Part shown: piece by piece, positions 25,378-41,721 of the stretch
Numbering within the stretch: the first letter of the stretch is position 1
Layout of the letters: each line of letters starts with the position of its first letter
Assembly (NCBI GenBank): GCA_963169855.1
Contig: CAUJCN010000002.1
Coordinates: 267,288-331,287, forward strand
Origin: Patescibacteria group bacterium
GTDB lineage: Bacteria > Patescibacteriota > Dojkabacteria > J137
Direction of reading: 5' to 3'
Length of the DNA: 64,000 bases
Program-made: the position numbers and the translations under genes
The notes under the pieces: generated by a model
Databases searched by the model: none
Told to the model about the DNA's origin: nothing
What the model saw: the letters and a program-made list of their open reading frames with translations, nothing else

Positions 25378-28300
25378 TTGAATTCAGAACCAGAAATTTA
25401 CGATACTAATCTTTGTGCTATTGATTTTAGTTCTACAGCTCCAAACAATCTACTTACAGAAATAATAGGTGTAAGACAAGTTTTGGTTTCTGGAGTTTGT
25501 AATGGCGTAAATCAGGATGCGCCTGCAGGACCGGATGAGGATGAACAGACTCTATCATTTAATCCATTAACAAACACTTTATCAATTTTGAATGGAAATT
25601 CTGTAGTTATTCCTTTAGGAACAGGTACCACTGTTCAAAATAATTCATACCCTACAAATATTTCAAATCCAATTTCTGGATTAACTCAAGTAAATACTGG
25701 TAACGGATTGATGGGAGGCCCAATTACTTCTTCAGGGACAATCGAAGTTGATGCGCCAACTTGTGCTGGAACAGATAAACTTCAATGGAATGGAACAGCC
25801 TTTGTATGTTCTCCTGATATTATGGGGGGTGGAGTAAACAGCGTTACTGCAAGTGGACCAATTCTATCTTCAGGAGGAACTACCCCAAATATTAGTTTAG
25901 CCGCTTGTCCTGCTGGACAGTCTTATGTACACGATGGATCGAACTGGGTTTGTCAGGCTGCACCTACTGCGATAACTGTACAAAACGGGCTAACCGATAT
26001 AGGAGGTGGAATTGTCGAACTTGGTGGTTCGAACCCACTACTACATGACACTGATATTATAAGTGATGGAAATAACTTGAACTTTACAGGAACAGGAAGA
26101 TTTGGAATTGGAACAAATACACCAGAATTTAAGCTTGATATAGATAACGATGGAGTAAATGGTGGTGGAATAATTGCCAGGGGAACTTTCGGAAGTGGAG
26201 CAACTTTAACAACAAACGGTGCTGGGGAAAGATTGATTTGGGATCCTGCAACAGGAGCATTCAGAGCAGGTGGTGTTTCGGGAAATCAATGGGATTTAGC
26301 AAACATCGGGATATACTCTTTTGCTGCAGGACAAGATAATTTAGTCTCTGGAAGTCATTCAGCTGCTTTTGGCTCTGGAAACAATGTTGCTGGGAACAAC
26401 TCTTTTGCCTCTGGAACAGCTAACTCTGTCCTTTCAAACTTTTCTAACGTATTCGGTTTAGCTAACACAGTCAATGGTGCATTTGCCACAGCTATGGGAT
26501 TATCTTCGAGTGCAACAGGAACTGCAGCCTTTGCATCTGGATCTAGTGCAGCTGCAACAGGGAATAATTCGGTCGCTATCGGAACATCTGTTAGTGCTAC
26601 TGCACAGTCCGCGATTGCAATGGGTGCTAACTCAACTGCATCAGGTCAAAGCAGTACTGCAATCGGATTCTTTAATAACGTCTCTGGTTTTAACTCAACT
26701 GCTGTAGGATTCAACAATCAATTAAACTCGGACAATGGATTTGCATTTGGATATCAAAATACTCAGGCAGCCGCTATAGGTGATGCATACCTTTTTGGTC
26801 TAGCAAACACAGCTAACTCAGGAACTGCTGTTCTTGTTGGTACTAACAACGTGGCAAACGGTGGTACGTCAGTTGTAGCAGGATTTCAGAACACTACTAA
26901 TGGTCAGTTTTCAAATATTTTTGGTAGATTATCTACAACGACTGGAGATTTTTCTAGCGCTTTCGGAACAGGATTAACTTCTCAAGGATATTCTCAAACT
27001 GTTTTAGGAAGATACAATGTAGCCTCAGGTACACAGGGTTCATTAGTCCAAACTGACGAAGGTTTAGTTTTTGGAAATGGTACTTCTCTAGGAAACGAAA
27101 GTAATGCATTCAGTATTAGCTGGCAAGGAAGAACGACAATGTATGGAACTTCCGCAATTGTTCCAGTTTCTCCTGCTGCAGCAGGATCAATCTACTTTGA
27201 TGCAAACACAAATACTTTCCAATGTTCAGAAAATGGTGGCGCATACTTTGACTGTTTTGGTGGATCTGCAGCTGGTGTTACCGATATTAACGGAGAGTCC
27301 GGTTCGATTACATTAAGTGGTGATTCTCCTATCACAGTTGGGAACGTTGGACCTGCTTTTAGTGTAGGGTTGGCTCCTTGTGCTTCTAACCAAACTTATG
27401 TATATGTAGCGGGTAATTGGCTATGTTCTGATGAAAATCTTTTGTATTATGATGAATCAAATAATGTCCCTGGTGTAGAGGCTGCGGCAACAGGAACTAA
27501 TGCAGTCGCCATTGGAGACAGTGCTACTGCAGGCGGTAACTTTTCTACTGCAATTGGTTGGGCTACATCTGCAAATGGTTTTAGATCACAGGCTTATGGA
27601 ATGGCTAATACTGCTGGAGCTACAGCTACAAACTCACAATTGTTTGGGTTTAATAACAATATCGATACCTTCGATACTGTCTCGGTTGGTTGGAGCAATA
27701 CATCTACCAATGGAGGCGAACTCAATATTTTTGGTAGAAACAATACTGTGAACGGGGCTGATTCTACTGTAGTTGGTTATAACAATACGACTACATTTGG
27801 ATTCTCTGAACAGTATTTATATGGAAGTAATCTTACTTCTTCTGCTGACAATACACATGTTTTTGGAAATGGAATAACAAATAATGTTGCTAACTCTTTG
27901 ATGGTTGGACCAAACTCTTCAAATATTCTTTCTATGCTGTCTACAGGAGAAATGGGATTTGGAAATATCGATCCTACAAGTAGAGTTGATATTTCTGGAG
28001 CTCTTACAATGAGAGGTATGCCTGCACCAGGCTTATCACCTTTAGGACAAGGTCGAATATACTTTGATTCTACAGCTAATGAATTCTTATGTTCAGAAAA
28101 TAATGGTGCATATTTTGACTGTTTTGGCGCTGCAGCTGGTGTTACTTCTGTAACTGCTGGTTTAGGAATGGTTAATTCTGGAACAGCTAGTGATCCTATA
28201 CTGGATGTTCAGGCTGTTAATGCAGTAAGAATCGATGCTACTAACGATGCAGTTATGTTTGGAGGACCCGTTAACTCTGGCTTAGCTCCTTTAATTGAAA

Positions 28301-31300
28301 ATACTCAGGTTCCCCAAGCTGGATTTAGTTTAGCGTTCTTAGGAAATACAGCTGGAGACATGTTTGGAATTGGAACTAACTCGACAGGAACGAACCTAAA
28401 TGAAAGGCTGGATGTAGTTGGTAACATAGAAAACATAGCTGATGTTTCATTAAATCCTGAGTTTATTACAACAACTGCCACAGCAAGCAGTCCAACTTCT
28501 ATTCAAGTAGTTGGGAATAGAGCTTATGTTACTAACCAATCTTCAAGTAACATTCAGGCATTTGATGTTTCTGATCCAAGTACTCCAACCTCAGAATACA
28601 TTATTGGAACAAACTCACAGTCACTCAATTTTATAGCTTCTTCTGGAAGATATATTTATGGAGCAGGCCGAACATCGGGGGTTTTCCAGGTAATTGATAC
28701 ATACAATAACGGCGTAGCCTTTAATACAGTCAAGGGAACTCTAGTATTTACAGGATTTCAAATTACAGGTATAGCTCAATCTGGAAACAATGTAATAGTG
28801 ATTTTAGACGATTTAGCTGCTGGGAATAACGACTTTTTAGCTATAGTTGATGTTTCTAACCCTTCATACCCAAGAGAGACTGGAAGAATTGCATTTGGAG
28901 TAAACACCAACCCAAATGCCGTTGATGTCCAAGGTGGAATTGCTTATGTAGCTTTGAGTAGCCCTACAAACCAAGTACGAGCTGTTGATGTAAATGTTAC
29001 AGAAGCTCCTACACTTTACCCAGTCTACAGTGCGCCTATCTGTAATGCATCGAATACAATCAAGGTTTATGGTAAATTTGCATTTGTTGGTTGCGTTGGA
29101 TCTGCGCAAATTTCAATCATTGATATTAGTAACCCTAATGTTGCAGCTCCCGCAACAGTTGCAACTATTAACGCAGGAGGACCAGTTTCTGAAGTAGAAG
29201 TTTCAGGAAGATACTTATTTGCTACTGTTGCTGGAATTGATGAGTTAAGAATGTGGGACATAAGATTACCTTCTTCTCCAACATTGATTGGAAATGTTTC
29301 AACCGGGGGAACAACACCTAGTTCACTTGATGTCTCTGGAAGGCATGTATATGTGACAAACCAAGTAACCAACACAATGGCCGTTATTGATATTCACGGT
29401 ATAGAAACAACTAGCATTCTTGCTCACAGTGTTGAAAGTGGGCAATTAAATGTGGATGGTGAAACTAATTTATTTGGGAGAGTTAACATTGCGAGCAACG
29501 CTTCAGTTGGATCAAACCTACATGTCGGTGGAGATGTTGGAGTCACAGGAAACATTTCGACACTAATAAATGGATCTATGACTCCTTCGCGTATAGGAAA
29601 TTTAGACTTAGCTCCCGGTAACAACACTGACTTTGTTTTAAATGGGAATTATGCTTACATTATAGATCAGACAGGAAGTGCTCTTCGTGTAATCAATATC
29701 AGTAATCCTGCATTGCCTGTTGCTGTTGGAGTTCCTATATCAACTGGCTTAGGTAGTTCTCCAAGAAGTATTGCAATGGCTGGAAGATATGCTTACACAG
29801 CAAACGATAACTCCTCTATTACGATATTTGACATCACTAACCCTAGTGCACCTGTTTTGATATCAACTTTTGCTATACCAACCACTACTGGACTCAGAGA
29901 GATAATTGCAACAGATAGATATCTTTACGCTACAGGATTAACCAGCAATGCTGTGTTTGCAATAGATGTTTCTAACCCACGAGCTCCTCGTATTGTTTCG
30001 ACTGTCACAGTCTGTACTGATCCTACTAACTTGGCAATGCAGGAAAAATATCTTGTAGTGGGTTGTTCTCAGGCAATTGCTGATAATGTACAAATATGGG
30101 ACTACTCCAACATATTATCGCCATCATTTGTTAGCTCAATAAGCGTTGCAGCTCCCGGTCCATTAGCTGTAGTCGATTTAGATATTCAAGGTAATTTTAT
30201 CTATACTGTAACTACAAATGGAATACAAATTCATAATATATCTACTATAACTACTCCTGTTACCGACTTTGCTTCTGGAACTTTTTTTGGTGGAGCTCCA
30301 GTTGTAATGAGCTCCGTTTTAGCAAACGGTAGATACGTTTACGCTACAATGGGAAATGGACCTGCAGGAAATGCTGTTTGGTTTGCAGTAGATATAACAA
30401 GTTCTGTACTTCCTCGAATTGTTTCAGCTACATTCTCAACTACAGCTATGCATAACAGAGCTTTGATTGTTCGAGGTAAGAACGTGTACACTGTTAATAA
30501 CAATCCACTCAGCAACTCAATTGAAATCTTTGACGTTAATGGAGTTGAGACTTCCACTCTTGTTGCACACAGTGCACAGGCTGGGCAGCTCGTTGTTCAA
30601 AATGATGCAAGCATTGTGGGAAATCTAACAGTTGCTGGTGGAACAACTTTTGCGGGAAATGTAGGAGTAAACGGGGATGCAACTATTAATGGGCAGCTAA
30701 ATGTAACAGGAAGAAATCCAGTATCAGTTGGTCTTACGAATGTCGGAATGTCTCCATCGGCCGTTACTACATCAGGAAGATATCTCTACATGGGAAGTTT
30801 CACTGGAGGAAGAATTTTTGATATAAGTGACCCTACAGCTCCAATTTTACTCAGCTCACCTGCTATGCCAACAACTTCGAGGGCAATTATTCAGGGTCAC
30901 TATATTTACACCTCATTTGGAACGACTTTTACACTATCATCAATCGCAAATCCGAATACCCCTGTAGTTCTATCGAATCTGACTTTGTCTGTCGCTAACA
31001 GGGCTTTTGATATCCAAGGTAAATATGCCTACATGATGAAGTCTAATGGTGAAATGGATATTATTGATATTTCATCAACACAAACAATGAATATAATCTC
31101 TTCTACTATGATAAGTCCTGGAACTATGAATGACATTAAAGTTAGAGGAAGATATGTATATATTACCCACCCAACTTCAACATCGCTGATTATCTATGAT
31201 ATTAGCAACCCTTTAGCCCCAGTATCTGTTGGAAGTGTAGTTCTACCAAGCGTAGGAAATAGGATTGCATTACGGGAATCATACGCATATGTAACACATA

Positions 31301-32877
31301 CTAATGGATTCTACACAGTCGACATTACTAATCCAGCAACTCCTACTTTAGTACATACTGTCGCGGGCTTAGGAGGAGCTCCAGTAACTCCAGAAATCAG
31401 TGGAAAAAACCTGTATCTATTCGGAACAACTGGTGTTGGATTAAGAGTTTACGACATATCTAGTCCTGCTGTACCACAGTTTGTCGGAACAACTTCAACA
31501 GGATTTCAAATCCCTTCAGGAAAGATTCAAGGAAGATATGCCTATGCTTCTGACACAACAAACACCGCACTTCGGGTATTAGATCTTGGTGGAGCTTACG
31601 TTCAGCAGTTAGAAGCTAGCGGAGTTGAAACCGATAGTGTTGTGGCAAGAGGAGATGTTACTGCAAATAGCGGTATATTTAAGAACGGAATTAGTGTAAG
31701 TAACTCAATGAATGTACTAGGTGATTCAAATGTTAGAGGGAAACTAACAGTTGGATTAAATAATGCTGGTCCGGCTTCCGGAGTATTCCAAGAAGGATCT
31801 GGATACGCATTCTCTGTAATGGCTGGACCAAACCCAGTATCTACAGAAAACGCGATTGCCGCGTTTACAAACCTAAACCCAGCCAACTCTTTGAACAATA
31901 CCGTAATGAGACTAAGCATGGGAGCTACTCCTACTGGAGGAAACACAAACCCAAGATTTATTAGATTCTTTGCAGGATTATCTACAGGAGACACAGGAGG
32001 AACTGCAGTTGGAAGTATTAGTTTGAATGGTGCTTCCGGAGTATCATTTAATACATCTGGAGCTGACTTTGGAGAATACTATACAATCGTTGACGATGCA
32101 CAGGTTGGGGAAATTGTAGCTGTAACAAGAGATGGAAACCGAAGAGGAGTAAAAGGAGAAAAGATCCTAGGAGTTGTTTCTGATACTGCAGGTTTCGTTG
32201 GAAACAGTATCGAATATACTTCTGAAGGAGAAATTCCAGCTGATCGAAAGATTGTAGGATTGTTAGGACAAATGAAAGTTAAAGTAAACGGCGAGTCTGG
32301 AGCAATTGAAGCAGGAGACTTTGTAGCACTATCCTCTACTGCTGGAGTTGGAATGAAAGCTACTGCAAACGGAATGGTATTAGGGAAAGCTATGGAATCA
32401 TCAACTTGCGATACAGCTGGGTGCGAAAGCACAATTATGATTGCTGTACAGCCAACTTGGTATGTTCCAGAATTAGAGGGATTATTAATGGGAGAATCGA
32501 ATGGTGACTCTGAAGAATCAGATACACCTATATCATCTATTTCTATGGAACAAATTGTAAGTTACTTAACCGAAAATACCTTAGAAATTTTAAAGACAAA
32601 CAACTTAACTGTAAACTCAAGATTCAATTTAAACGGCAGTCTTTACCTTAGTGGAAACAATACTGGAAGAACTGTAATTCCTGTTGGTCAAACATCTGTT
32701 ACAGTTAACTTTGCTTCGGTGTTCGAAGGTTTGCCAAATGTTGTATTAACTCAGAACAGCTTTATTGAGGGAAAGTACAGAGTAACTAATGTAACAAATA
32801 CTGGATTTACAATTGAACTAGAAAATATACAGGTTTCTGATGTAGAATTTACGTGGTTAGGTTATGGTACATTATGA
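25378..32877 (+). CDS. giant cell-surface protein: Hep_Hag (YadA-head-like) repeats + three LVIVD beta-propeller blocks + phage-tail-fibre-like intramolecular chaperone domain + H-type-lectin-like C-terminus
   Basis: 2499-aa uninterrupted ORF, Gly/Ser/Thr/Asn-rich.
- Hep_Hag-like 'NSVAIGTSVSATAQSAIAMGANSTASGQSSTAIGFFNNVSGFNSTAVGFNN', seen twice.
- Duplicated module '(S/R)IYFD..TN.F.CSENGGAYFDCFG' at 27185-27265 and 28056-28133.
- More than 20 LVIVD-type blades, e.g. 'GRYAYTANDNSSITIFDITNPSAPVLIST'.
- Three homologous spacer modules, e.g. 'HGIETTSILAHSVESGQLNVDG', 'NGVETSTLVAHSAQAGQLVVQ' and 'GGAYVQQLEASGVETDSVVARG'.
- C-terminal 'GADFGEYYTIVDDAQVGEIVAVTRDGNRRGVKGEKILGVVSDTAGFVGNS' is Peptidase_S74/G2-like.
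- C-terminal 'FASVFEGLPNVVLTQ...YRVTNVTNTGFTIELEN...FTWLGYG' is H_lectin-like. Confidence 0.85.
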   Translation: MNSEPEIYDTNLCAIDFSSTAPNNLLTEIIGVRQVLVSGVCNGVNQDAPAGPDEDEQTLSFNPLTNTLSILNGNSVVIPLGTGTTVQNNSYPTNISNPISGLTQVNTGNGLMGGPITSSGTIEVDAPTCAGTDKLQWNGTAFVCSPDIMGGGVNSVTASGPILSSGGTTPNISLAACPAGQSYVHDGSNWVCQAAPTAITVQNGLTDIGGGIVELGGSNPLLHDTDIISDGNNLNFTGTGRFGIGTNTPEFKLDIDNDGVNGGGIIARGTFGSGATLTTNGAGERLIWDPATGAFRAGGVSGNQWDLANIGIYSFAAGQDNLVSGSHSAAFGSGNNVAGNNSFASGTANSVLSNFSNVFGLANTVNGAFATAMGLSSSATGTAAFASGSSAAATGNNSVAIGTSVSATAQSAIAMGANSTASGQSSTAIGFFNNVSGFNSTAVGFNNQLNSDNGFAFGYQNTQAAAIGDAYLFGLANTANSGTAVLVGTNNVANGGTSVVAGFQNTTNGQFSNIFGRLSTTTGDFSSAFGTGLTSQGYSQTVLGRYNVASGTQGSLVQTDEGLVFGNGTSLGNESNAFSISWQGRTTMYGTSAIVPVSPAAAGSIYFDANTNTFQCSENGGAYFDCFGGSAAGVTDINGESGSITLSGDSPITVGNVGPAFSVGLAPCASNQTYVYVAGNWLCSDENLLYYDESNNVPGVEAAATGTNAVAIGDSATAGGNFSTAIGWATSANGFRSQAYGMANTAGATATNSQLFGFNNNIDTFDTVSVGWSNTSTNGGELNIFGRNNTVNGADSTVVGYNNTTTFGFSEQYLYGSNLTSSADNTHVFGNGITNNVANSLMVGPNSSNILSMLSTGEMGFGNIDPTSRVDISGALTMRGMPAPGLSPLGQGRIYFDSTANEFLCSENNGAYFDCFGAAAGVTSVTAGLGMVNSGTASDPILDVQAVNAVRIDATNDAVMFGGPVNSGLAPLIENTQVPQAGFSLAFLGNTAGDMFGIGTNSTGTNLNERLDVVGNIENIADVSLNPEFITTTATASSPTSIQVVGNRAYVTNQSSSNIQAFDVSDPSTPTSEYIIGTNSQSLNFIASSGRYIYGAGRTSGVFQVIDTYNNGVAFNTVKGTLVFTGFQITGIAQSGNNVIVILDDLAAGNNDFLAIVDVSNPSYPRETGRIAFGVNTNPNAVDVQGGIAYVALSSPTNQVRAVDVNVTEAPTLYPVYSAPICNASNTIKVYGKFAFVGCVGSAQISIIDISNPNVAAPATVATINAGGPVSEVEVSGRYLFATVAGIDELRMWDIRLPSSPTLIGNVSTGGTTPSSLDVSGRHVYVTNQVTNTMAVIDIHGIETTSILAHSVESGQLNVDGETNLFGRVNIASNASVGSNLHVGGDVGVTGNISTLINGSMTPSRIGNLDLAPGNNTDFVLNGNYAYIIDQTGSALRVINISNPALPVAVGVPISTGLGSSPRSIAMAGRYAYTANDNSSITIFDITNPSAPVLISTFAIPTTTGLREIIATDRYLYATGLTSNAVFAIDVSNPRAPRIVSTVTVCTDPTNLAMQEKYLVVGCSQAIADNVQIWDYSNILSPSFVSSISVAAPGPLAVVDLDIQGNFIYTVTTNGIQIHNISTITTPVTDFASGTFFGGAPVVMSSVLANGRYVYATMGNGPAGNAVWFAVDITSSVLPRIVSATFSTTAMHNRALIVRGKNVYTVNNNPLSNSIEIFDVNGVETSTLVAHSAQAGQLVVQNDASIVGNLTVAGGTTFAGNVGVNGDATINGQLNVTGRNPVSVGLTNVGMSPSAVTTSGRYLYMGSFTGGRIFDISDPTAPILLSSPAMPTTSRAIIQGHYIYTSFGTTFTLSSIANPNTPVVLSNLTLSVANRAFDIQGKYAYMMKSNGEMDIIDISSTQTMNIISSTMISPGTMNDIKVRGRYVYITHPTSTSLIIYDISNPLAPVSVGSVVLPSVGNRIALRESYAYVTHTNGFYTVDITNPATPTLVHTVAGLGGAPVTPEISGKNLYLFGTTGVGLRVYDISSPAVPQFVGTTSTGFQIPSGKIQGRYAYASDTTNTALRVLDLGGAYVQQLEASGVETDSVVARGDVTANSGIFKNGISVSNSMNVLGDSNVRGKLTVGLNNAGPASGVFQEGSGYAFSVMAGPNPVSTENAIAAFTNLNPANSLNNTVMRLSMGATPTGGNTNPRFIRFFAGLSTGDTGGTAVGSISLNGASGVSFNTSGADFGEYYTIVDDAQVGEIVAVTRDGNRRGVKGEKILGVVSDTAGFVGNSIEYTSEGEIPADRKIVGLLGQMKVKVNGESGAIEAGDFVALSSTAGVGMKATANGMVLGKAMESSTCDTAGCESTIMIAVQPTWYVPELEGLLMGESNGDSEESDTPISSISMEQIVSYLTENTLEILKTNNLTVNSRFNLNGSLYLSGNNTGRTVIPVGQTSVTVNFASVFEGLPNVVLTQNSFIEGKYRVTNVTNTGFTIELENIQVSDVEFTWLGYGTL

Positions 32878-33561: not shown

Positions 33562-34017
33562 CTACACTTGAATACCGTAAGCCAATTTTAATTCTACTGG
33601 TAGATTGTAATCTGCTATCCAGACTCTTCTGTCTCTTTTTTCGATTTTTACAGGTAATTTTAGAGGTTCTGGTGTACCAAATTTAAATAGTGTTGCGTAT
33701 CTTTTCCCTGACATTCTTTTAGTAACTCTTTCAACATGAGCTTCATCTACCATCCCTATTTCTTCCATAACATTCAAAAAAATATCTCTAATTTGATCAG
33801 GATGTATGATTTCAAGAAATTCTACTTCTGTGACTGGAATTCTGCCAACAACTGGACCTCCGGTTTCTTTAATGTAAATATAATCTCCAGCATTCAATTT
33901 TTTATAAGGAGCAATTCTGTTATAACTCCATTTAATATCTAAAGTTTTCTCTCCGTTCATCATAAGATCTATGTAATCTCTGCTTCGATTTCTGGAATAA
34001 ATTGCTAAATGATTCAT
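33562..34017 (-). CDS. ASCH (PUA-like) domain protein
   Basis: 151 aa. 'DLMMNGEKTLDIKWSY...LNAGDYIYIKETGGPVVGRIPVTEVE' resembles the ASCH beta-barrel (GxKxxExR-like motif). Confidence 0.45.
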   Translation of the reverse strand: MNHLAIYSRNRSRDYIDLMMNGEKTLDIKWSYNRIAPYKKLNAGDYIYIKETGGPVVGRIPVTEVEFLEIIHPDQIRDIFLNVMEEIGMVDEAHVERVTKRMSGKRYATLFKFGTPEPLKLPVKIEKRDRRVWIADYNLPVELKLAYGIQV

Positions 34018-34018
34018 A

Positions 34019-34264
34019 CTATTTGAACTTAATATTATCTTGTATTATTTTAATTCTTTCGTGCAACTCTTGCATACGAATTGAAAAATCTACTGCAGAT
34101 CTATTTTCTACGCTTATACTAGCCATTGCATTCCCTATTTGACATGACTTATGAATATCGTGACCTTCTAATAAACCTGAAACAAATCCCGATCTCCACA
34201 TATCTCCTGCTCCAGTTGGGTCCACAACTCTTGTATTGAAAGCAGAATTTCCATCGTATTAGTC
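34019..34264 (-). pseudogene. remnant of a PfkB-family carbohydrate kinase (C-terminal ~80 codons only)
   Basis: Contains PfkB signature 2, '...NSAFNTRVVDPTGAGDMWRSGFVSGLLEGHD...' (DTxGAGD). Only about 33 nt separate it from the next gene, so the N-terminal ~220 aa of a normal PfkB kinase are absent. Confidence 0.55.
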
Positions 34265-34837
34265 TTCAAAAATACGTCTGTACTCTTTTGCAACCAATCT
34301 TCTCATTAACTCGGCTTTGCTTATATCAAGTTCTTCACAAAGTTGTTCTAGTTGTTTTAGAGTTGTTGATCTTAAAATAATGTTGAATCTTTTTTTTGGA
34401 GGTTCAAGATTTTCTATGTATTTTTCCAATACGAGTGCCAAATCTTTTACTGTCTTATAGGTTTTTACTGTAATCATATCTTCACCATATGAAAGCAAGT
34501 TATCTGGGAAATTTTTATACTCTTCTTCTCTTATGACACAAATGACAGGAACTTTATTTTCCAATGCCATTATTGTTTGCAAGAAAACAGTCCTCGATTT
34601 TTCAGAGAACTCCGCTACAATAAAATCAACAGATCTTATAAGTTTATTTGTCCCATCTACAAGTGTTTTCATTTTTGCTTCGAGATCGCTTTGCTCCATT
34701 GGATAATTATCAACTAACCACGGCTGATACATTTCTAATCCCATACCTCTTAAAGTAGAAGCAATAGTTTTGTATGTATCGATATTTCTATCTAGGTTTT
34801 TAATTGTAGCTACTAAAGCAACCTTATTTGGTCTCAT
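34259..34837 (-). CDS. nucleoside 2-deoxyribosyltransferase-like domain fused to C-terminal ribbon-helix-helix (CopG/Arc-like) domain
   Basis: 192 aa. The N-terminus 'KVALVATIKN...LVDGTNKLIRSVDFIVAEFSEKSRTVFLQTIMALENKVPVICV' resembles the NDT/flavodoxin-like nucleotide-binding fold. The C-terminus 'FNIILRSTTLKQLEQLCEELDISKAELMRRLVAKEY' is an RHH motif. Confidence 0.4.
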   Translation of the reverse strand: MRPNKVALVATIKNLDRNIDTYKTIASTLRGMGLEMYQPWLVDNYPMEQSDLEAKMKTLVDGTNKLIRSVDFIVAEFSEKSRTVFLQTIMALENKVPVICVIREEEYKNFPDNLLSYGEDMITVKTYKTVKDLALVLEKYIENLEPPKKRFNIILRSTTLKQLEQLCEELDISKAELMRRLVAKEYRRIFED

Positions 34838-35645
34838 CTTTATAAAAGTAATTAAATATTAGATAGTTATAGAGTCTATGTGGAAGAAATCTTTTAGCCC
34901 ATAAGATTCTTCTGTCTCTTTTCTGAAAAAAGTAGTTATCTCTTGGATTATTCATTAACCAGATTAACTCTCTAGCAGCTTGCTCTGAAGTAACATAATC
35001 CTTAAAAAAGAATCTAAAACGTCTTTTCCAAGATTCATATAAAGTTGAGTAAGCTGTTTGTGCAATGTTACCACTTTCCTTAATATTTTTTCCAAAACTG
35101 CTATAAACACTTCCTGGCGAAAATATACTGATTTGAATTCCGAAACCTCTTACTTCATTTCTTAGTACGTTACTTATCTTATCCAAAGCACTTTTCGTTG
35201 CTGCGTAAAATCCCAGAGTTGGTGTATCGACAACTGATCCAATCGAACTCACATTAATAATATGTCCGCTATTACTTTCTCTCATTGAAGGTAGTACTTT
35301 TTGAATTAGCTGAATGGGTGCAATAACATTAACGCTTAATTGCGACTGCATTTCAGCAAGATCCATATCCTCTACAGTACTACGAAAGGCAAAACCTGCA
35401 TTGTTTATTAAAATATCTATTTTGTTATAATCTTTTAATACTTTATCTAGATTTTTAGAAGCTCCAACAATATCATTCAGGTCGATTTCAAAGAATTTAT
35501 AATTCTTTACTGAAAATTCTTTTATATTGTTCCTTCCTATTCCTAGAAATAAGTAGTCAGAAAATTGCGAACACGCAATCCTTATGAAAGATTCACCTAT
35601 TCCACTACTTACTCCTGTTATTAATACAACTTTTGAGTAACTCAT
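34824..35645 (-). CDS. short-chain dehydrogenase/reductase (SDR)
   Basis: 'VVLITGVSSGIGES' (TGxxxGIG) and 'YAATKSAL' (YxxxK). Confidence 0.8.
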   Translation of the reverse strand: MSYSKVVLITGVSSGIGESFIRIACSQFSDYLFLGIGRNNIKEFSVKNYKFFEIDLNDIVGASKNLDKVLKDYNKIDILINNAGFAFRSTVEDMDLAEMQSQLSVNVIAPIQLIQKVLPSMRESNSGHIINVSSIGSVVDTPTLGFYAATKSALDKISNVLRNEVRGFGIQISIFSPGSVYSSFGKNIKESGNIAQTAYSTLYESWKRRFRFFFKDYVTSEQAARELIWLMNNPRDNYFFQKRDRRILWAKRFLPHRLYNYLIFNYFYKDETK

Positions 35646-36574
35646 AAACTTTTAGCTAGATCGTAAAGTATTCCACTTGAAATATTATTATTACTTGGAA
35701 CAATTATTCTACAATTTAGATACTCTGAAATCTGAAATATATTCATTAAGGCTTTATCAGCCGCCCACATATAGTATGGTTCTTTTTCATACATTGGCAT
35801 TCTATCTTCGTAGGAAAGTGCGATAATCTTATCGTACAAAGGTCTTAGCTTTGCTACATCTATTGAGTAAGGATGATCTCCTTGCAATCCTTCTCTATCT
35901 TCCAAATCCACATTCATAGTTTCTAGAAATTCAATAATGTTTGTAGTTCCATAAACAATCACCTTTGGGTTTCTTTTAGATTCACCTAAACCTTTTAGTT
36001 CCGTTCTAACATAGTCAATCGCTGTTTGTAATTCTTCTGCAGCAGGATGATGACTTTCTGAAAATTCTTCCTGCATAAAATAGGTTCCGCTTTTGAATAA
36101 GTATGTTTCGTGAATCTTGGTATTTTCTCCTATTACAACTTGAACACTTCCTCCTCCAATATCTGCTACAGCTATCTCTTGATCTGGAAAGTCTTTAGAA
36201 ACAGATTCAAATAAAAGTCTTGCTTCATCTTTTTGAGATAGTACTTCTAATTTAATTCCAGTAGATTCTTCTATTCTATTTAAAACTTCTTCAGAATTAG
36301 TGGCTTTTCTAATCGCTTCAGTAGTAACTGCTAAATACTTCTCTACTTTATATTCAGTCATTTTGTCTTTGAACATGTTCAAAGCTTCTATTGTTTTAAG
36401 GATTGATTTCTCGATAATCATGTTATTCGTTTTAGGTAAATCTCTACCCATTACGGTTAATTGTTTATCTTTGTACAGCACTTTAGAATTAAAGTTTTCA
36501 TCGAATTCTCGAATTTCGAATTTCGATTTTAGAGTCCCAACATCAATGACTGCGACAATTTTTTTAGATTCCAT
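35642..36574 (-). CDS. Ppx/GppA family phosphatase (exopolyphosphatase / pppGpp phosphohydrolase-like)
   Basis: 310 aa with an actin-like ATPase fold: 'VAVIDVGTLKSKFEI' (phosphate 1) and 'IAVADIGGGSVQVV' (phosphate 2). Confidence 0.6.
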   Translation of the reverse strand: MESKKIVAVIDVGTLKSKFEIREFDENFNSKVLYKDKQLTVMGRDLPKTNNMIIEKSILKTIEALNMFKDKMTEYKVEKYLAVTTEAIRKATNSEEVLNRIEESTGIKLEVLSQKDEARLLFESVSKDFPDQEIAVADIGGGSVQVVIGENTKIHETYLFKSGTYFMQEEFSESHHPAAEELQTAIDYVRTELKGLGESKRNPKVIVYGTTNIIEFLETMNVDLEDREGLQGDHPYSIDVAKLRPLYDKIIALSYEDRMPMYEKEPYYMWAADKALMNIFQISEYLNCRIIVPSNNNISSGILYDLAKSL

Positions 36575-37865
36575 AGAGCATTCTTTTTAATAAATAAAAT
36601 CTTTTCCCTATATCCGCGTTTAGATTTGAACCATAAACAGCATTCAAAACTACATCAGGAAATAGATTGAAAGTTATTCTAAAATCTAACCCTCGGTCGA
36701 TGGTAATTACTTCAAACTTTGTATTGCTGAATTTTATTAATTTCAAAGCACTATTCAAATTTTCCAATCTATTGGGATTCTCTTTGGATTGAAGACATAA
36801 AACAACCTGATCTCCTATATAGTTCTCCCATTCCAGAACATCCTCAATAATATCTCTGACATCAAGACCAAAATATAGAGAGCTTCTTTTAAGGAATTCT
36901 TTGTCAAACTGTTCGTAATTGTCTCTATTTATATGCAGAAAAACTGATGAATTTTCCGGTATATCAGATTTTATTTCTGCCTGAATTTCTTGGAATCCAG
37001 TTAATGTAGAAGCAAAAATATGAACCTGTACGGGAATATGAGAATTGTACTCATTTAAATACTTTAGTACAGATTTCGTTGTATTTAAGTCTGTTTTTGG
37101 ACCAATTACACCTTCAGAAATATCAACATGTACAAGATCTACTCCACTTTGAAGAGCTTCATTTAAAGATTCGCGGTTTTTTTGATTAATGTCTAATGCT
37201 ACAAATCCAATTCCATTTACAACAGGTTTATCCGTATATCCTAACTTATGTACTAATTGTTTTAATTTTGTATAATTTATATTCTCAGTCTTACTTGCAT
37301 TGTCTGATTTGACAGAAGACTGAACATCAAAACCAATTACATTTAACTCTAGATAATTATCAATATTTTTAGCTCCAATTCCTCCAGCTAAAAATATTTT
37401 ATTTGAATCTATTTTTTGTAAAAGACTCATAGCATTTTCTTTACCAATTTCTAATCCTGTTCCACCCATAAATGATTTATCAAGGATTACATAATCTGCA
37501 TCATCTGATATAGTAAAACCTAATGATTGTGTAGATACGACTTGGAAAATTATTAATCCTTGCTCGAATTCTGTTCGCAGTGCCCTTATTTGTGGGTACG
37601 AATCTTCATAGTGTAGCTGTACACCATCAAACTCAAACTCCTTCACCAGTTTCTTAATTACAGAAATATCTCTTTCTTTTGTTACCAAAATAGATTTAGA
37701 TTCTTTATAGTAATTTTTAAGTTCTTTTGTGCAAGCTTTAATTTGATGCATTCTTAAAAAATCATTGTCAGAGATAAGGTGATAACCTAAAAATGGCACC
37801 TGCATTCTACCTAGCGTCCTAGTTTCATATATATTTTTAACATTACATACTTTTAATTTTTTCAT
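36564..37865 (-). CDS. two-TIM-barrel fusion protein: phosphoribosylanthranilate-isomerase-like N-half + ribulose-phosphate-3-epimerase-like C-half
   Basis: 433 aa. The N-half 'DGVQLHYED...DYVILDKSFMGGTGLEIGKE...FLAGGIGAKNIDNYL...GFDVQSSVKS' resembles TrpF. The C-half 'GVDLVHVDISEGVIGPKTDLNTTKSVLKYLNEYNSHIPVQVHIF' resembles RPE. Confidence 0.4.
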   Translation of the reverse strand: MKKLKVCNVKNIYETRTLGRMQVPFLGYHLISDNDFLRMHQIKACTKELKNYYKESKSILVTKERDISVIKKLVKEFEFDGVQLHYEDSYPQIRALRTEFEQGLIIFQVVSTQSLGFTISDDADYVILDKSFMGGTGLEIGKENAMSLLQKIDSNKIFLAGGIGAKNIDNYLELNVIGFDVQSSVKSDNASKTENINYTKLKQLVHKLGYTDKPVVNGIGFVALDINQKNRESLNEALQSGVDLVHVDISEGVIGPKTDLNTTKSVLKYLNEYNSHIPVQVHIFASTLTGFQEIQAEIKSDIPENSSVFLHINRDNYEQFDKEFLKRSSLYFGLDVRDIIEDVLEWENYIGDQVVLCLQSKENPNRLENLNSALKLIKFSNTKFEVITIDRGLDFRITFNLFPDVVLNAVYGSNLNADIGKRFYLLKRMLYGI

Positions 37866-38551
37866 TCAAAAATATTAATATTTAAGAAGTTAGCATCGTA
37901 TTTAGCTTTAAAGAAAACAGCGTTGATATTATCGGAAAACTCTCTATCAATCAGGTCATCGTCTCCTATGTAACTTACAGATTTGAATTTAGTTTTCCCA
38001 GTACTTTTTAATAACTGATCAAAAGCAAATCGATTCGGTTTATCTACCAATACTCTATTCTTATACATATCTTCTTCTCCAATAATTATTTCGAAAAAGT
38101 TAATTAATCCTGTTTTATACAAATACGCTGAAATGATTGTTTTCCTTGATGATGAAATTATTGCCAAAACATTTTCAGTATCTTCAACCAAAGTTTCTAG
38201 AAAATCAATAATTCCATTTCCCAATCTTGCAACTGCGTTTTCAGTCTTATCTTTAAGAATTGATGTGATAGTATGGCTTTCTTTTATATCCATAATTCCT
38301 TTAGCGATACTATTAATATCGGTTGTGTTAAAGTAACTTATAAGACTCTCGAAATCTTCTCTGCTTCTTGTTATTCCAGATTGGATTCTTCTATAGCTAT
38401 CGAATCTTTCTTTAAGACCTTCTTCATAAGGAAGAAATGCATTAAGTCCTCCGTGGATATTTAATTGTTTCATTGTCTTTTCCCAACCTTGTCGGTGGTA
38501 GTCAGAACTTTTTGCGATTGTTCCATCAAAATCGAATATTATTAGGTTCAT
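37862..38551 (-). CDS. HAD-superfamily hydrolase (phosphatase)
   Basis: 'MNLIIFDFDGTIAKS' is HAD motif I (DxDGT). 'SYIGDDDLID' is a motif-IV-like element. Confidence 0.75.
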   Translation of the reverse strand: MNLIIFDFDGTIAKSSDYHRQGWEKTMKQLNIHGGLNAFLPYEEGLKERFDSYRRIQSGITRSREDFESLISYFNTTDINSIAKGIMDIKESHTITSILKDKTENAVARLGNGIIDFLETLVEDTENVLAIISSSRKTIISAYLYKTGLINFFEIIIGEEDMYKNRVLVDKPNRFAFDQLLKSTGKTKFKSVSYIGDDDLIDREFSDNINAVFFKAKYDANFLNINIFE

Positions 38552-39855
38552 ATATCTAAAATAACTGAGTCTGAATAAGCATTGGTCATTAACTTCTCAA
38601 TTCTTCTTTTCATTTTGTCGAATGTTCCGTGTTTATTTGTATAACTGTCTTTAGTATATGTACTTACATAATCTGATAAATATCCGAACAAACTATTTGC
38701 TGCCACCAAAGGATTTATTCCTCCATGATCTTTCCTTGTTAGATGATGATACCTATGACTAACCTTGAAGGTGTTACATGCAAGAAAAATTTCTTCAATA
38801 TTTTTAGGTAAGAAATTTACCAGGATATCTACGGTTCTACCAGTTGATATCGAGTCGTCAAGAATCAGTACTCCAGTTGAAGATTTCAAATGTCCTCCCT
38901 GAAAAAATGGAGAAATAGAGTACTTAATACTGTCTACATATCTACTTCCTGTATTTGAGTAATTCGATAGGTTCAAAGTTATAAAGTTAAGTTGCGATTT
39001 TCCTACAAATTCACGATACGCATTTATAATAAATGGTAGTTCTATCCCTCCGTACTCTACGCCAACCATTAGTGTGTCAGGACGAATAAATTCATTAGAA
39101 ACTTTTTTCGCTAGGTGAATCATTTTTGCAAAGTTATCCGCTTCTCTGCTCTTTCTAATTAGTTTATGTTGAATCTTTTTATTTCTTTCTACAGAAGGTA
39201 GTCTTTTAGATGTATATTCATAAACCGCTTCAATAACAGAAATAAAGTTTTCAATTCCATCTGGTAAATAAATTTTTTTAGTCAAATATGTTTTTGTAAA
39301 CGAGAATTCTATAACTCCAATTAGAGACAAAAGTTTATTATATTCATTCACTGATAAAGATTCTTCATCTATATAACCCAATTCTCTTGAGATTTGGTTT
39401 AATGCATAAAGCGAAATAAACAAGTAATTTTTTAGATTGTCCAAAAATCCTAGGTACAATATAAAGTTTTCATCTATACTAACTGACTTTAAAGTGTTTA
39501 TGTAACTTTTTAATGAGTCGAATACTTTCTCAAGCTTGATTTGATTTGCTTCTTTAACCATACCAATATAGTATTCTAAGCCCCGCAATAAGTACTTTTT
39601 ACCCAATTGAATAGTTCTATTTTTATACTTCAGACCGAAGAAGAAATCTTTAAGCACTGTATCTCCTATATACTGTAACTCTCTTTCCTGAATAACAAAT
39701 GCACCGCTGTCATAAACAAAAGAAGGGGTCTTTATTGAGTCACTTGCGGATGAGATTGAGCTTTCGATTGTTGAGTAGCGCTCTTTATAACTACTCCAAC
39801 ATACTTCAACAATTTCTGAAGGTATGTTTATTTTATGTCCTCTGATGTTTTTCAT
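38548..39855 (-). CDS. protein with C-terminal type-I phosphoribosyltransferase domain and uncharacterised ~280-aa N-terminal domain
   Basis: PRTase PRPP-binding motif 'GVLILDDSISTGRTVD' preceded by 'LMVGVEYGGIELPFI'. The N-terminal domain has no recognised motif. Confidence 0.55.
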   Translation of the reverse strand: MKNIRGHKINIPSEIVEVCWSSYKERYSTIESSISSASDSIKTPSFVYDSGAFVIQERELQYIGDTVLKDFFFGLKYKNRTIQLGKKYLLRGLEYYIGMVKEANQIKLEKVFDSLKSYINTLKSVSIDENFILYLGFLDNLKNYLFISLYALNQISRELGYIDEESLSVNEYNKLLSLIGVIEFSFTKTYLTKKIYLPDGIENFISVIEAVYEYTSKRLPSVERNKKIQHKLIRKSREADNFAKMIHLAKKVSNEFIRPDTLMVGVEYGGIELPFIINAYREFVGKSQLNFITLNLSNYSNTGSRYVDSIKYSISPFFQGGHLKSSTGVLILDDSISTGRTVDILVNFLPKNIEEIFLACNTFKVSHRYHHLTRKDHGGINPLVAANSLFGYLSDYVSTYTKDSYTNKHGTFDKMKRRIEKLMTNAYSDSVILDI

Positions 39856-39974
39856 AGGAAATATACCTTCTTATACATTTTTTGTATAAAATTTTTTATG
39901 TATTATACATGCTTTAGAAATATATGCAATACGCAAATCCTTTAAATACTGCAATTTTCGTAAATTTGGAAGAT

Positions 39975-40847
39975 TTATAAGTTGTTAGTCAAAATGTGAA
40001 GATTTTGCACAGATTGAATTACTTGGTTCGAACCAATATCAAATTCTACCCAGAAGTTTAAAACCATAACTTCTTTCACTATCTGAAAAAGCACCAAAAG
40101 CTCTTCAATATGCGAAACATTAAACAAAGTTTTCAGCTGAGAAAGCAAATCAGATTCATAAATTCCTATTTGACCAAAGTTTTTAAAAAATTGAGCAAAA
40201 TCTATGACACCTATCGAATTTACAGCATTAGCCCAATCAATTATCCTAATATCATTACCGTTGAATAAAATATTCTGATTTTCAAGATCATTATGATCTA
40301 GCACTGTAGGGAAGTTTTTGGTTTTTAAAGATTCAAATTTTCTCAGAATCCACTTCTCTTTTTGAAAAAGAGATTCAAGATTTATTTCTTCTCCATAATT
40401 CTTTAGATTTTTCAGAGGATTTTGTAACATCCAAACAATGTGTTCATCAAACTTAACGGTTTTACTTTTTAAATTGTCCTTAAAGTATTTGTACTTGTTG
40501 ACAATCCAATTGAATAACAAATTCTTAGTGTGTTCTGAATAGTATTCAGGCTCCCAAAAACCCTTACAGAACTCTATTATTAACACATTCTCATCTCCAA
40601 AGATAAACGCAGGAGTATTTAAATTATTATGACTTAGATACTTTTGATAAATTTCTACTTCTCTTTTTTGCCAACCATGAAAAAACTTAGCTATGAATTC
40701 TTGTTCTGGTATTGAGACCTTAAATGTATCAGCTGTCTTGCTAGTTTCCTGTCTGGAAAGACTAGTATTTAAAGGATTAATGTTGAATGGAATTCTTCTC
40801 TCCGTAGATAACTTCGTTAAATAGGAAAGGAATTTATCTGACTCCAT
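39975..40847 (-). CDS. kinase-like fold phosphotransferase (APH/choline-kinase family)
   Basis: 'VLDHNDLENQNILFNGNDIRIIDWANA' corresponds to the HxDxxxxN...IDxE catalytic and Mg loops. Confidence 0.6.
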   Translation of the reverse strand: MESDKFLSYLTKLSTERRIPFNINPLNTSLSRQETSKTADTFKVSIPEQEFIAKFFHGWQKREVEIYQKYLSHNNLNTPAFIFGDENVLIIEFCKGFWEPEYYSEHTKNLLFNWIVNKYKYFKDNLKSKTVKFDEHIVWMLQNPLKNLKNYGEEINLESLFQKEKWILRKFESLKTKNFPTVLDHNDLENQNILFNGNDIRIIDWANAVNSIGVIDFAQFFKNFGQIGIYESDLLSQLKTLFNVSHIEELLVLFQIVKEVMVLNFWVEFDIGSNQVIQSVQNLHILTNNL

Positions 40848-41679
40848 ATTTTTTCAATATTCTCCCGATCGGAGTTTCTCCAGCTACAGATAAATTTGTG
40901 TACTTTTCAATTAATTCATCGTACCAAGTCTGCTCTTCCCACTCTTCCACACCAGTATATTTGTTTTTTAAATATTCCAGATTACTTATGATTACATCGT
41001 AACCAGCATCGTTGCAAACTCCTGCTTCTCCATATAATCTTGTGTAATTTACTAATACTAATGGAACATGAACTATTCCTTCAGGAAAATTTCGAGCAAG
41101 CTGCAAACTATAATCGTAATCTTCAAAAAGAGATAAGCCTGTATCCCATCTTGCTTTACTTTGAGCTGTCTTTTTTAGAACCATTCCGTTGGGATCTCCT
41201 TCAAATGTATGATTCCATAGATTTGAACTATTAGGATCAGCTTTATATGAAGATTCTTCTTTTAGTAATCGAGGGATTTCATTTTCTAGGATCATAATGC
41301 TAAAGTTCATATTAGGATAAGCAATTACAGCTCTAGAATCTGATCTTAGTTTGTTTACCATTATGCTTAACCAGTTAGTCAAAACTGTATTGTCACTATC
41401 TAAATAAGAAATGTATTCTCCTGTTGCATGTTCTAATCCAAATTGCCTGGCACCGGCTGCTCCCTTTGACCCCTTATTTGTAAGATATTTAATTCGAGTA
41501 TCAATAACGAATTCTCTCATTAATTTACGAGTATCGTCTGTAGAATTATCATCAACTATAAGAAGCTCCCAATTAGTATAAGTTTGTTGTTGGACACTAA
41601 GAATTGATTTCCAAATAGAAAATGCTCTATTAAATGTAGGCATTATTATCGAAACCTTTTCATCAATTGAATCTGCCAT
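40834..41679 (-). CDS. glycosyltransferase family 2
   Basis: 'VSIIMPTFNRAFSIWKSILSVQQQTYTNWELLIVDDNSTDDT' (GT-A with DxD). Also 'YLDSDN'. Confidence 0.8.
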   Translation of the reverse strand: MADSIDEKVSIIMPTFNRAFSIWKSILSVQQQTYTNWELLIVDDNSTDDTRKLMREFVIDTRIKYLTNKGSKGAAGARQFGLEHATGEYISYLDSDNTVLTNWLSIMVNKLRSDSRAVIAYPNMNFSIMILENEIPRLLKEESSYKADPNSSNLWNHTFEGDPNGMVLKKTAQSKARWDTGLSLFEDYDYSLQLARNFPEGIVHVPLVLVNYTRLYGEAGVCNDAGYDVIISNLEYLKNKYTGVEEWEEQTWYDELIEKYTNLSVAGETPIGRILKKYGVR

Positions 41680-41721
41680 TTTTAATTTTAATCACCCTAA
41701 TTATACATTAATTGTATAAAA

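What the first reader, a model, noticed from the sequence alone, without database searches (positions are those of the whole stretch)
34259..34837. NDT/flavodoxin-like nucleotide-binding domain fused to a ribbon-helix-helix DNA-binding domain
The N-terminal ~140 aa have the pattern of the nucleoside 2-deoxyribosyltransferase-like Rossmannoid fold ('...VDFIVAEFSEKSRTVFLQTIMALENKVPVICV'). The last 40 aa form a CopG/Arc-type RHH ('FNIILRSTTLKQLEQLCEELDISKAELMRRLVAKEY'). This architecture suggests a nucleoside- or nucleotide-sensing transcriptional regulator for the adjacent enzyme cluster. NDT-like sensor domains are also found in conflict or defence systems.
Basis: partly seen in the sequence, partly recalled or inferred. 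Interest (0 to 1): 0.5.

Follow-up and report, generated by a model that had tools for sequence, protein, structure and literature searches.

The report
Dead-enzyme nucleotide sensor fused to repressor
This gene encodes a small regulator made of a catalytically disabled copy of the nucleotide-cleaving enzyme DNPH1 joined to a ribbon-helix-helix DNA-binding domain, and a perfectly conserved 19-bp palindrome in front of the neighbouring enzyme genes is very probably its binding site, giving a testable regulator, DNA site and gene set in the poorly understood Saccharibacteria.

The parts
34259..34837 (-). Regulator gene, 192 aa. Its ATG overlaps the 3' end of the SDR gene by 14 nt. It is the last intact conserved gene of the core operon.
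34403..34837 (-). Residues 1-145: DNPH1/RCL-like NDT-superfamily domain. The phosphate Ser (S81) and base-stacking residues (I12, L59) are kept. Catalytic positions are replaced (A7, Q38, T63, Q87).
   Evidence: residue roles from PMC10603095
34262..34396 (-). Residues 148-192: ribbon-helix-helix domain. Strand K-K-R-F-N-I-I-L-R, helix A 157-170, turn D-I-S-K, helix B 174-190.
39871..39889 (.). Candidate operator 1: perfect palindrome TTATACA-N5-TGTATAA, 15 nt upstream of the ATG of the PRT-like gene.
41701..41719 (.). Candidate operator 2: perfect palindrome TTATACA-N5-TGTATAA, 21 nt upstream of the ATG of the GT2 gene.
39903..39909 (.). Extra single half-site (reads TGTATAA on the operon strand) inside a TATAAT-like -10 box, 13 nt upstream of operator 1.
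38548..39855 (-). First gene of the core operon: 435-aa protein with an N-terminal helical domain and a C-terminal type I phosphoribosyltransferase fold.
37862..38551 (-). HAD-family phosphatase.
36564..37865 (-). 433-aa protein with a PRAI-like TIM barrel and a second, ribulose-phosphate-epimerase-like barrel.
35642..36574 (-). Ppx/GppA-family (ASKHA) protein. Best conserved enzyme of the cluster (59-73% identity).
34824..35645 (-). Short-chain dehydrogenase/reductase. It is immediately upstream of the regulator and overlaps it in every genome, including the rearranged L031.
39975..41679 (-). Second regulated unit: GT2 glycosyltransferase (40834-41679) and a choline-kinase/APH-like kinase (39975-40847).
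34019..34258 (-). Remnant of the PfkB kinase gene that follows the regulator in other genomes. Only residues 243-310 of 313 are left, in frame directly after the regulator's TAA.

Best explanation
The protein is a one-component transcription factor. Its C-terminal RHH domains pair into dimers, and two dimers occupy the two arms of the 19-bp palindrome TTATACA-N5-TGTATAA. The arms are 12 bp apart centre to centre, about one helical turn. The palindrome overlaps or directly follows the -10 box of the promoters in front of the PRT-like operon (which ends with the regulator gene, so the regulator controls itself) and of the GT2-kinase unit. Occupancy therefore most likely represses both. The N-terminal domain descends from a DNPH1-type nucleoside-5'-monophosphate N-glycosidase. 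It has lost its nucleophile, general acid, catalytic Tyr and water-activating Glu but has kept the phosphate and base-stacking contacts. It is therefore proposed to bind, without cleaving, a nucleoside-5'-phosphate-like metabolite. A plausible candidate is the product or a downstream intermediate of the operon's phosphoribosyltransferase-like first enzyme. Binding would change DNA affinity or dimer-dimer cooperativity. Shown here: the domain identities, the loss of catalytic residues, the conserved operon, and the conserved cluster-specific palindrome that follows the transcription units through rearrangements. Inferred: that this protein binds the palindrome, that binding represses, that a ligand exists, its chemical class, and whether it induces or co-represses.
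Against: There is no direct evidence of DNA binding. The RHH ribbon is poorly modelled in the monomer (pLDDT below 50 at 148-156), and no dimer or tetramer model could be made. The right arm is itself a -10-like sequence, so part of its conservation could reflect promoter function. The ligand is unknown, and the partner-subunit phosphate contact of DNPH1 (S128') has no counterpart, so the pocket differs from DNPH1. 23 of 159 family members keep Glu at the nucleophile position, so some relatives may still be enzymes. Only about 10 kb either side of the cluster, plus one 64-kb window, could be scanned, so sites elsewhere in these genomes are not excluded. In L029 the regulator persists although the 5' half of the operon and the palindrome are gone.
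Confidence: 0.7

Rival explanations
1. It is a working pathway enzyme: a MilB/BlsM/DNPH1-type nucleotide N-glycosidase that releases a free base or ribose-5-phosphate for the phosphoribosyltransferase-like enzyme. The C-terminal helices would serve only for oligomerisation.
Against: The nucleophile Glu is Gln in 19 of 19 subfamily members. The general acid Asp is Thr in 18 of 19, and the catalytic Tyr is Gly or Ala. E104Q inactivates human DNPH1. The C-terminal domain is the best conserved part and matches DNA-binding RHH proteins, including the ribbon residues. A cluster-specific palindrome would be left without a binding protein.
Confidence: 0.07
2. The protein is an RHH regulator, but the palindrome is not its operator. 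The palindrome would instead be a bidirectional or extended -10 promoter element, or the site of another factor encoded elsewhere. The regulator would act on different, unidentified sites.
For: The right arm plus the next base reads TGTATAAT in 8 of 11 sites, which is a good -10 box. In divergent arrangements both arms could act as back-to-back -10 boxes. No binding data exist.
Against: Perfect two-fold symmetry and a fixed 5-bp spacer are kept in genomes where nothing is transcribed divergently (window, L006, L014, L016, L025). No other copy occurs at <=1 mismatch among the many other promoters in the 64-kb window. The site tracks every unit of this cluster, including the regulator's own unit in L031. 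No other DNA-binding protein is conserved with it.
Confidence: 0.12
3. The palindrome acts as an RNA hairpin in the 5' leader (attenuator or RBS-proximal structure), not as a DNA site.
For: It lies 15-24 nt upstream of the start codon in several genomes, next to the Shine-Dalgarno sequence. It folds as a 7-9 bp hairpin, and three of five tested contexts fold better than shuffled sequence.
Against: The stem is weak (-3.8 to -5.7 kcal/mol), and two of five contexts are no better than shuffles. The arms are invariant and show no compensatory changes. The single variants (L009, L031) break pairing instead of compensating. In L006, L014, L017 and L025 the palindrome lies 75-110 nt from the start codon. 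In four genomes it sits between -35 and -10 boxes and so would be partly untranscribed. No Rfam family matches.
Confidence: 0.05
4. It is part of a conflict, defence or toxin-antitoxin system, with an NDT/TIR-like nucleotide-processing effector or sensor and an RHH antitoxin-like module.
Against: The best PADLOC hit has E=0.018, which is not significant. There are no relatives in 50,697 phage or 72,556 plasmid records. The gene sits in a conserved syntenic metabolic operon across genomes whose proteins are only 35-60% identical. There is no adjacent toxin-like partner. Catalytic residues are absent.
Confidence: 0.02

Closest known systems
DNPH1 / RCL (2'-deoxynucleoside 5'-phosphate N-hydrolase 1; PDB 4fyh, 2khz, 8qhq)
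   Different: The nucleophile Glu is Gln, the same change as the engineered inactive E104Q mutant. The general acid Asp, catalytic Tyr and Glu55 are also replaced. The partner-subunit phosphate Ser is missing. An RHH domain is fused at the C-terminus. The predicted role is regulation, not nucleotide-pool sanitation.
MilB / BlsM CMP N-glycosidases of nucleoside-antibiotic clusters (PDB 4ohr, 4jen, 5vto)
   Different: Those are active hydrolases with the catalytic Glu and have no DNA-binding domain. Sequence similarity is weak (E=0.03-0.13 with the family profile).
CopG / Arc / Mnt ribbon-helix-helix repressors
   Same: The C-terminal domain matches CopG residue by residue through the ribbon, helix A and the G/D-x-S-K turn (E=2.4e-5). 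The candidate operator is a short palindrome overlapping the promoter, with half-sites about one helical turn apart, as for Arc and Mnt tetramers (the geometry comparison is from my own knowledge).
   Different: Those are 45-80-aa stand-alone proteins with no sensor domain. Here the RHH is C-terminal to a 145-aa ligand-binding-type domain.
NikR (nickel-responsive RHH regulator; PDB 2ca9 and others)
   Same: Works similarly: an RHH DNA-binding domain fused to a small-molecule-binding oligomerisation domain, binding a palindromic operator and regulating a local operon. It appears among the profile hits (E=0.03).
   Different: The domain order is reversed (RHH is N-terminal in NikR). NikR's sensor is an ACT-like metal-binding domain. 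Its operator half-sites are much further apart (about 16 bp, from my own knowledge). This protein is not a member of that family.

Membership tests
NDT superfamily, DNPH1/RCL branch (Pfam PF05014) | Rossmannoid/flavodoxin-like alpha/beta domain with a five-stranded parallel sheet, superimposable on NDT or DNPH1 structures | tested here: met
NDT superfamily, DNPH1/RCL branch (Pfam PF05014) | Significant sequence-profile similarity | tested here: met
   The family profile matches DNPH1 at E=3.9e-19, and 30 of 58 relatives hit PF05014. The window protein on its own does not reach any Pfam NDT model.
NDT superfamily, DNPH1/RCL branch (Pfam PF05014) | Catalytic Glu nucleophile (E104 in human DNPH1) | tested here: not met
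   Q87 in 19 of 19 subfamily members. In the wider family 100 of 159 have Q and 23 have E.
NDT superfamily, DNPH1/RCL branch (Pfam PF05014) | General acid Asp (D80), catalytic Tyr (Y24) and Glu55 | tested here: not met
   T63, A7 (G in most of the subfamily) and Q38. Residue roles are taken from PMC10603095.
NDT superfamily, DNPH1/RCL branch (Pfam PF05014) | 5'-phosphate binding Ser (S98) that distinguishes nucleotide-specific DNPH1 from nucleoside NDTs | tested here: met
   S81 is invariant in the subfamily and present in 130 of 159 of the wide family. The second Ser (S128', from the partner subunit) aligns to a gap.
NDT superfamily, DNPH1/RCL branch (Pfam PF05014) | N-glycosidase or transferase activity; homodimer with shared active sites | not testable with these tools
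   Needs an enzyme assay and a multimer structure.
Ribbon-helix-helix superfamily (Pfam PF01402 RHH_1, CopG/Arc/MetJ) | Significant match to RHH profiles or solved RHH proteins | tested here: met
   RHH_1 scores 20.7 bits against a cut-off of 20.5. The domain-only profile hits CopG at E=2.4e-5, followed by five further RHH proteins.
Ribbon-helix-helix superfamily (Pfam PF01402 RHH_1, CopG/Arc/MetJ) | Strand-helix-helix topology with alternating polar and hydrophobic residues in the strand and a G/x-x-S/T-K turn before helix B | tested here: met
   K-K-R-F-N-I-I-L-R strand pattern, helices 157-170 and 174-190, D-I-S-K turn. The strand itself is modelled with low confidence.
Ribbon-helix-helix superfamily (Pfam PF01402 RHH_1, CopG/Arc/MetJ) | Obligate dimer forming an antiparallel two-stranded ribbon that enters the major groove | not testable with these tools
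   Only monomer prediction was available. The low pLDDT at 148-156 is compatible with this feature but proves nothing.
Ribbon-helix-helix superfamily (Pfam PF01402 RHH_1, CopG/Arc/MetJ) | Repeated or palindromic operator at regulated promoters | tested here: met
   TTATACA-N5-TGTATAA at every unit of the cluster in 11 genomes. Binding by this protein is inferred, not shown.
Anti-phage defence systems with NDT, TIR or SLOG domains (e.g. Thoeris) | Match to a defence-system model and a defence-island or mobile-element context | tested here: not met
   Best PADLOC E=0.018. No phage or plasmid relatives. Conserved metabolic operon context.
NikR-type ligand-responsive RHH regulators | N-terminal RHH plus a C-terminal ACT-like metal-binding tetramerisation domain | tested here: not met
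   The domain order is reversed and the sensor has a different fold. This is a functional analogy only.

The most novel reading that the evidence does not exclude
The DNPH1-like/RHH proteins are a large, so far unrecognised class of one-component regulators in Patescibacteria, built on a pseudoenzyme that reads nucleotide-type metabolites. The Saccharibacteria member would sense a nucleotide-like intermediate made by its own operon, which combines a PRT-like enzyme, a double TIM barrel, a phosphatase, a reductase, kinases and a glycosyltransferase. That pathway has not been described and may build a cell-envelope component relevant to the epibiotic lifestyle.
Probability: 0.3. Interest if true: 0.75.

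Novelty: new variant of a known kind. Interest (0 to 1): 0.6.

Why it matters
As far as I know, few transcription factors of Saccharibacteria and other Patescibacteria have a defined binding site or regulon, and much of their small genomes is unannotated. This analysis delivers a complete, testable unit: a regulator, a 19-bp operator with invariant arms, two regulated transcription units, and a rationale for the ligand class. It also gives a natural example of an enzyme (DNPH1 type) converted into a sensor by the same Glu-to-Gln change that structural biologists engineered to trap substrate. The family is large (379 clusters at 50% identity) and carries no functional name, so the annotation would transfer to many proteins. 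Finding the ligand would also help reveal what the conserved but unexplained ten-gene cluster makes.

Tried and rejected
- Single-sequence searches of the target against Pfam, NCBIfam, PADLOC and PDB sequences gave nothing for the N-domain. Only profiles built from distant relatives worked.
- The second word-indexed homolog search, with the diverse alignment, added almost nothing.
- Relaxing the palindrome to 3 mismatches gave no enrichment over chance (8 found, 9.1 expected), so only the two perfect sites count in the window.
- Inverted repeats upstream of four distant family members (L010-L013) could not be interpreted without orthologous comparisons.
- The contexts of those distant members are varied and mostly housekeeping, so the operon link applies to the subfamily only.
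- L029 was examined as a possible natural control. It proved to be a truncated cluster and is not informative.
- PDB sequence searches for the 435-aa, 232-aa and 151-aa neighbours gave nothing.
- The AFDB Foldseek library was unavailable.
- Literature searches found no description of an NDT/DNPH1-RHH fusion. The most relevant survey I know of (Burroughs et al. 2015, NAR) is not held, so prior mention there cannot be excluded.

Full report
**1. The observation**

Window 34259-34837 carries, on the minus strand, an ATG-to-TAA ORF of 192 aa. The start codon overlaps the end of the upstream short-chain dehydrogenase gene by 14 nt, so the gene is co-transcribed and probably translationally coupled with enzymes.

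A word-indexed search of 5.8 billion proteins found only 19 relatives (46-100% identical over the alignment). All but one (a 179-aa entry from a 656-bp contig) are 190-195 aa, and none has a functional name. An exhaustive HMM search of 1.84 billion cluster representatives found 379 proteins at E<=1e-3. Nearly all of the 150 best listed are 185-205 aa and align over both halves of the query. The two-domain architecture is therefore a real and widespread family. The only names public sources give are 'hypothetical protein [Candidatus Saccharimonas sp.]' and, once, 'nucleoside 2-deoxyribosyltransferase'.

**2. N-terminal domain**

Alone, the sequence reaches no Pfam, NCBIfam or PADLOC model in residues 1-145. 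Three further results settle its identity:
- In an alignment of 58 diverse family members (A2), 30 members hit PF05014 Nuc_deoxyrib_tr, best E=1.4e-8.
- The profile of that alignment matches solved DNPH1/RCL structures at E=3.9e-19 over positions 3-140. True NDTs follow at E=6e-4 to 0.03, MilB at 0.03 and BlsM at 0.13.

It can be sharpened to the DNPH1/RCL branch, meaning the nucleoside-5'-monophosphate N-glycosidases.

**3. An enzyme turned into a binding domain**

PMC10603095 defines the key features of human DNPH1:
- The catalytic triad is Y24, D80 and E104, and E55 activates water.
- H56 contacts the base, and I29 and I76 sandwich it.
- S98 and S128' (from the partner subunit) hold the phosphate.
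- The E104Q mutant is inactive but binds intact substrate.

I added the rat RCL sequence, as printed, to alignment A2. The binding-type positions are kept:

| Human DNPH1 | Target | Conservation |
|---|---|---|
| S98 | S81 | 19 of 19 in the subfamily; 130 of 159 in the wide family |
| I29 | I12 | |
| I76 | L59 | |
| S28 | T11 | S or T throughout the subfamily |
| R30 | K13 | |

The catalytic positions are all replaced:

| Human DNPH1 | Target | Conservation |
|---|---|---|
| Y24 | A7 | G in 14 of 19 |
| E55 | Q38 | K, N or Q in the subfamily |
| D80 | T63 | 18 of 19 |
| E104 | Q87 | 19 of 19; in the wide family 100 Q against 23 E of 159 |

S128' falls in a gap. The PDB entry 8qhq, the engineered Glu-to-Gln mutant, reads GVGYQLGRA, which is the family consensus. 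The subfamily has in addition an invariant K80-S81-R82, which places two extra basic residues around the phosphate Ser.

My inference is that the domain binds a phosphorylated ribosyl or nucleotide-like ligand and does not cleave it. The binding itself is untested.

**4. C-terminal domain**

Pfam RHH_1 matches residues 152-188 at 20.7 bits, just over the 20.5 cut-off. 8 of 19 close and 10 of 58 diverse members also hit RHH_1, and others hit RHH_3 or RepB-RCR_reg. I cut the C-terminal ~49 residues from 54 diverse members (A4). That profile alone hits CopG at E=2.4e-5, followed by AvtR, TTHA0139, HP0222, ORF56, a CopG-family regulator and NikR.

The CopG alignment runs from the first ribbon residue. 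R150-F151-N152-I-I-L aligns with CopG R4-L5-T6-I7-T8-L9, and the D-I-S-K turn aligns with CopG's G-L-S-K. Across 159 members this domain is the best conserved part of the protein: R/K150 in 153, F151 in 137, N152 in 130, S/T173 in 124, K174 in 131 and R179 in 140.

The model has both helices (157-170 and 174-190). The ribbon segment 148-156 has pLDDT below 50, which is expected for a strand that forms only in the dimer. No multimer prediction was possible, so the dimer fold is not shown.

**5. Genomic context**

The relatives come from Saccharibacteria and other Patescibacteria MAGs. Every locus long enough shows the same gene order:
1. a 420-440-aa PRT-like protein
2. a HAD phosphatase
3. a 433-aa protein with a PRAI-like and a ribulose-phosphate-epimerase-like TIM barrel
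4. a Ppx/GppA-family protein
5. an SDR
6. the regulator

A full-length PfkB kinase follows in L006, L008, L016, L025, L026 and L029. A GT2 glycosyltransferase with a choline-kinase/APH-like kinase lies next to this core, either divergent or in tandem. Many genomes add a cytidylyltransferase-like gene (PF01467), and one adds a guanylate-kinase-like gene and a DegT aminotransferase. The window has none of these three.

Distant family members (L010-L013) sit in unrelated, mostly housekeeping neighbourhoods. The link to this operon is therefore specific to the subfamily.

**6. The candidate operator**

I compared the regions upstream of the PRT-like gene and found the palindrome TTATACA-N5-TGTATAA in the window and in L005, L006, L008 and L009.

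- **In the window.** The pattern, at up to 1 mismatch, occurs exactly twice in 64 kb against 0.01 expected, with 0 of 100 shuffles reaching two. One copy is at 39871-39889, 15 nt before the PRT-like ATG. The other is at 41701-41719, 21 nt before the GT2 ATG. At 3 mismatches there is no enrichment.
- **Across genomes.** In ten loci totalling 171.5 kb there are 10 perfect copies against 0.008 expected. Information content is 1.97 bits per position in the arms, 0.81 in the spacer and 0.46 in the flanks, and the spacer is always 5 bp.
- **Independent genomes.** Adding the metagenome loci and L031, the palindrome precedes the PRT-like gene in 11 of 11 independent genomes whose upstream region is on the contig. 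Nine copies are perfect and two have one mismatch.
- **It follows the transcription units.** Where GT2 and PRT are divergent (L008, L009), one copy lies between them. Where they are in tandem (the window), each has its own copy.
- **A natural rearrangement.** In L031 the regulator is only 35% identical and the operon is split into SDR-regulator and a convergent PRT-HAD-TIM-Ppx unit. A perfect copy lies 19 nt before SDR-regulator and a one-mismatch copy lies 12 nt before PRT. These are the only two copies at <=1 mismatch in 18.4 kb. The regulator's own unit therefore carries the site, which implies autoregulation.
- **Position in the promoter.** In L008, L009, L016 and L026 a TTGACT hexamer abuts the left arm, and the right arm contains TATAA(T). 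In the window and L031 a separate TATAAT box, itself a third half-site, lies 13 and 4 nt upstream respectively. Either way the site overlaps or directly follows the -10 region, which is the geometry of a repressor.

**7. Who binds it?**

The regulator is the only protein with a recognisable DNA-binding domain that co-occurs with the palindrome in all genomes. The 151-aa protein that often flanks the site is missing from L008, L009, L016, L026 and L031.

As an RNA hairpin the element is weak: -3.8 to -5.7 kcal/mol, and two of five contexts fold no better than shuffled sequence. It shows no compensatory variation, and no Rfam family matches in the cluster.

A 19-bp palindrome with half-sites 12 bp apart fits two RHH dimers on one face of the DNA, as in Arc and Mnt (my own knowledge, not tested here). 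DNPH1 is a homodimer whose active sites are completed across the interface. A ligand bound at an N-domain interface could therefore plausibly alter how two RHH dimers are held together. This step is speculation.

**8. Defence reading**

PADLOC gives only non-significant hits, best E=0.018. tblastn finds no relatives in the phage or plasmid collections. The context is a vertically conserved metabolic operon. Nothing supports a conflict-system role.

**9. Verdict**

The protein is a DNPH1-derived pseudoenzyme sensor fused to an RHH domain. It most likely acts as an autoregulated repressor of two adjacent transcription units through a defined 19-bp operator.

My confidence for each claim:

| Claim | Confidence |
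|---|---|
| Domain identities | about 0.95 |
| The protein binds this palindrome and regulates the cluster | about 0.7 |
| The N-domain is a non-catalytic ligand sensor | about 0.65 |
| The ligand is a nucleoside-5'-phosphate-like pathway metabolite | about 0.4 |

The folds and the principle (an RHH joined to a ligand-binding domain, as in NikR) are known. The sensor type, the domain order and the family are, as far as my searches reach, undescribed. I could not check one relevant survey. I rate it a new variant of a known kind.

Noticed in passing
window 34019-34258 (minus strand): A remnant of a PfkB-family kinase gene. Only the part matching residues 243-310 of the 313-aa enzymes that follow the regulator in L008, L016 and L026 is left. 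It lies in the same reading frame directly after the regulator's TAA stop. Gene callers annotate it as a 68-aa protein. In this genome the kinase has evidently been lost by deletion.
   Followed up: yes
window 33562-41679 (minus strand), and loci L005-L009, L014, L016, L017, L025, L026, L031: A conserved Saccharibacteria cluster of unknown pathway. It contains a PRT-like protein with an unmatched helical N-domain, a HAD phosphatase, a double TIM barrel (PRAI-like plus RPE-like), Ppx/GppA, an SDR, GT2 and a choline-kinase-like kinase. Variable additions are PfkB, a cytidylyltransferase, a guanylate-kinase-like protein and DegT. It looks like synthesis and transfer of a phosphoribosyl or nucleotide-derived compound, but no known pathway was matched.
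   Followed up: partly
window 43650-44150: A GC-rich island (45-50% GC against a 33-36% background) with no Rfam match even at E<=0.1. The minus strand folds well (z=-4.85) and has a strong hairpin of about 16 bp. It also holds a 110-aa ORF (43695-44027) that looks like a membrane protein and has a GGAGG ribosome-binding site. The gene call in the matching public contig is instead a Cys/Gly/His-rich 105-aa ORF in another frame (43672-43989). Which reading is right, and why the composition differs, is unresolved.
   Followed up: partly
window 33562-34017 (minus strand): A 151-aa protein with no Pfam or PDB sequence match. Homologs (50-58% identical) sit directly upstream of the operator and PRT-like gene in L005, L006, L014, L017 and L025, and L017 has a one-mismatch palindrome in front of its copy. 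It is probably an optional member of the regulon. Its motif pattern is reminiscent of ASCH/PUA-like domains (my impression only).
   Followed up: partly
locus L029 6400-9232: One metagenome contig keeps Ppx-SDR-regulator-PfkB but only the last third of the TIM-barrel gene. It has no PRT-like gene, no HAD gene and no palindrome. This is either a decaying cluster or an assembly chimera.
   Followed up: partly
window 25378-32877 (plus strand): A 2499-aa protein with weak or faint LVIVD, YadA-head-like and Peptidase_G2 matches. It is presumably a giant surface protein and is adjacent to the cluster but transcribed convergently.
   Followed up: no
window 41722-42420 (minus strand): A 232-aa protein upstream of operator 2 with no family match and no homolog in any of the syntenic loci.
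   Followed up: partly
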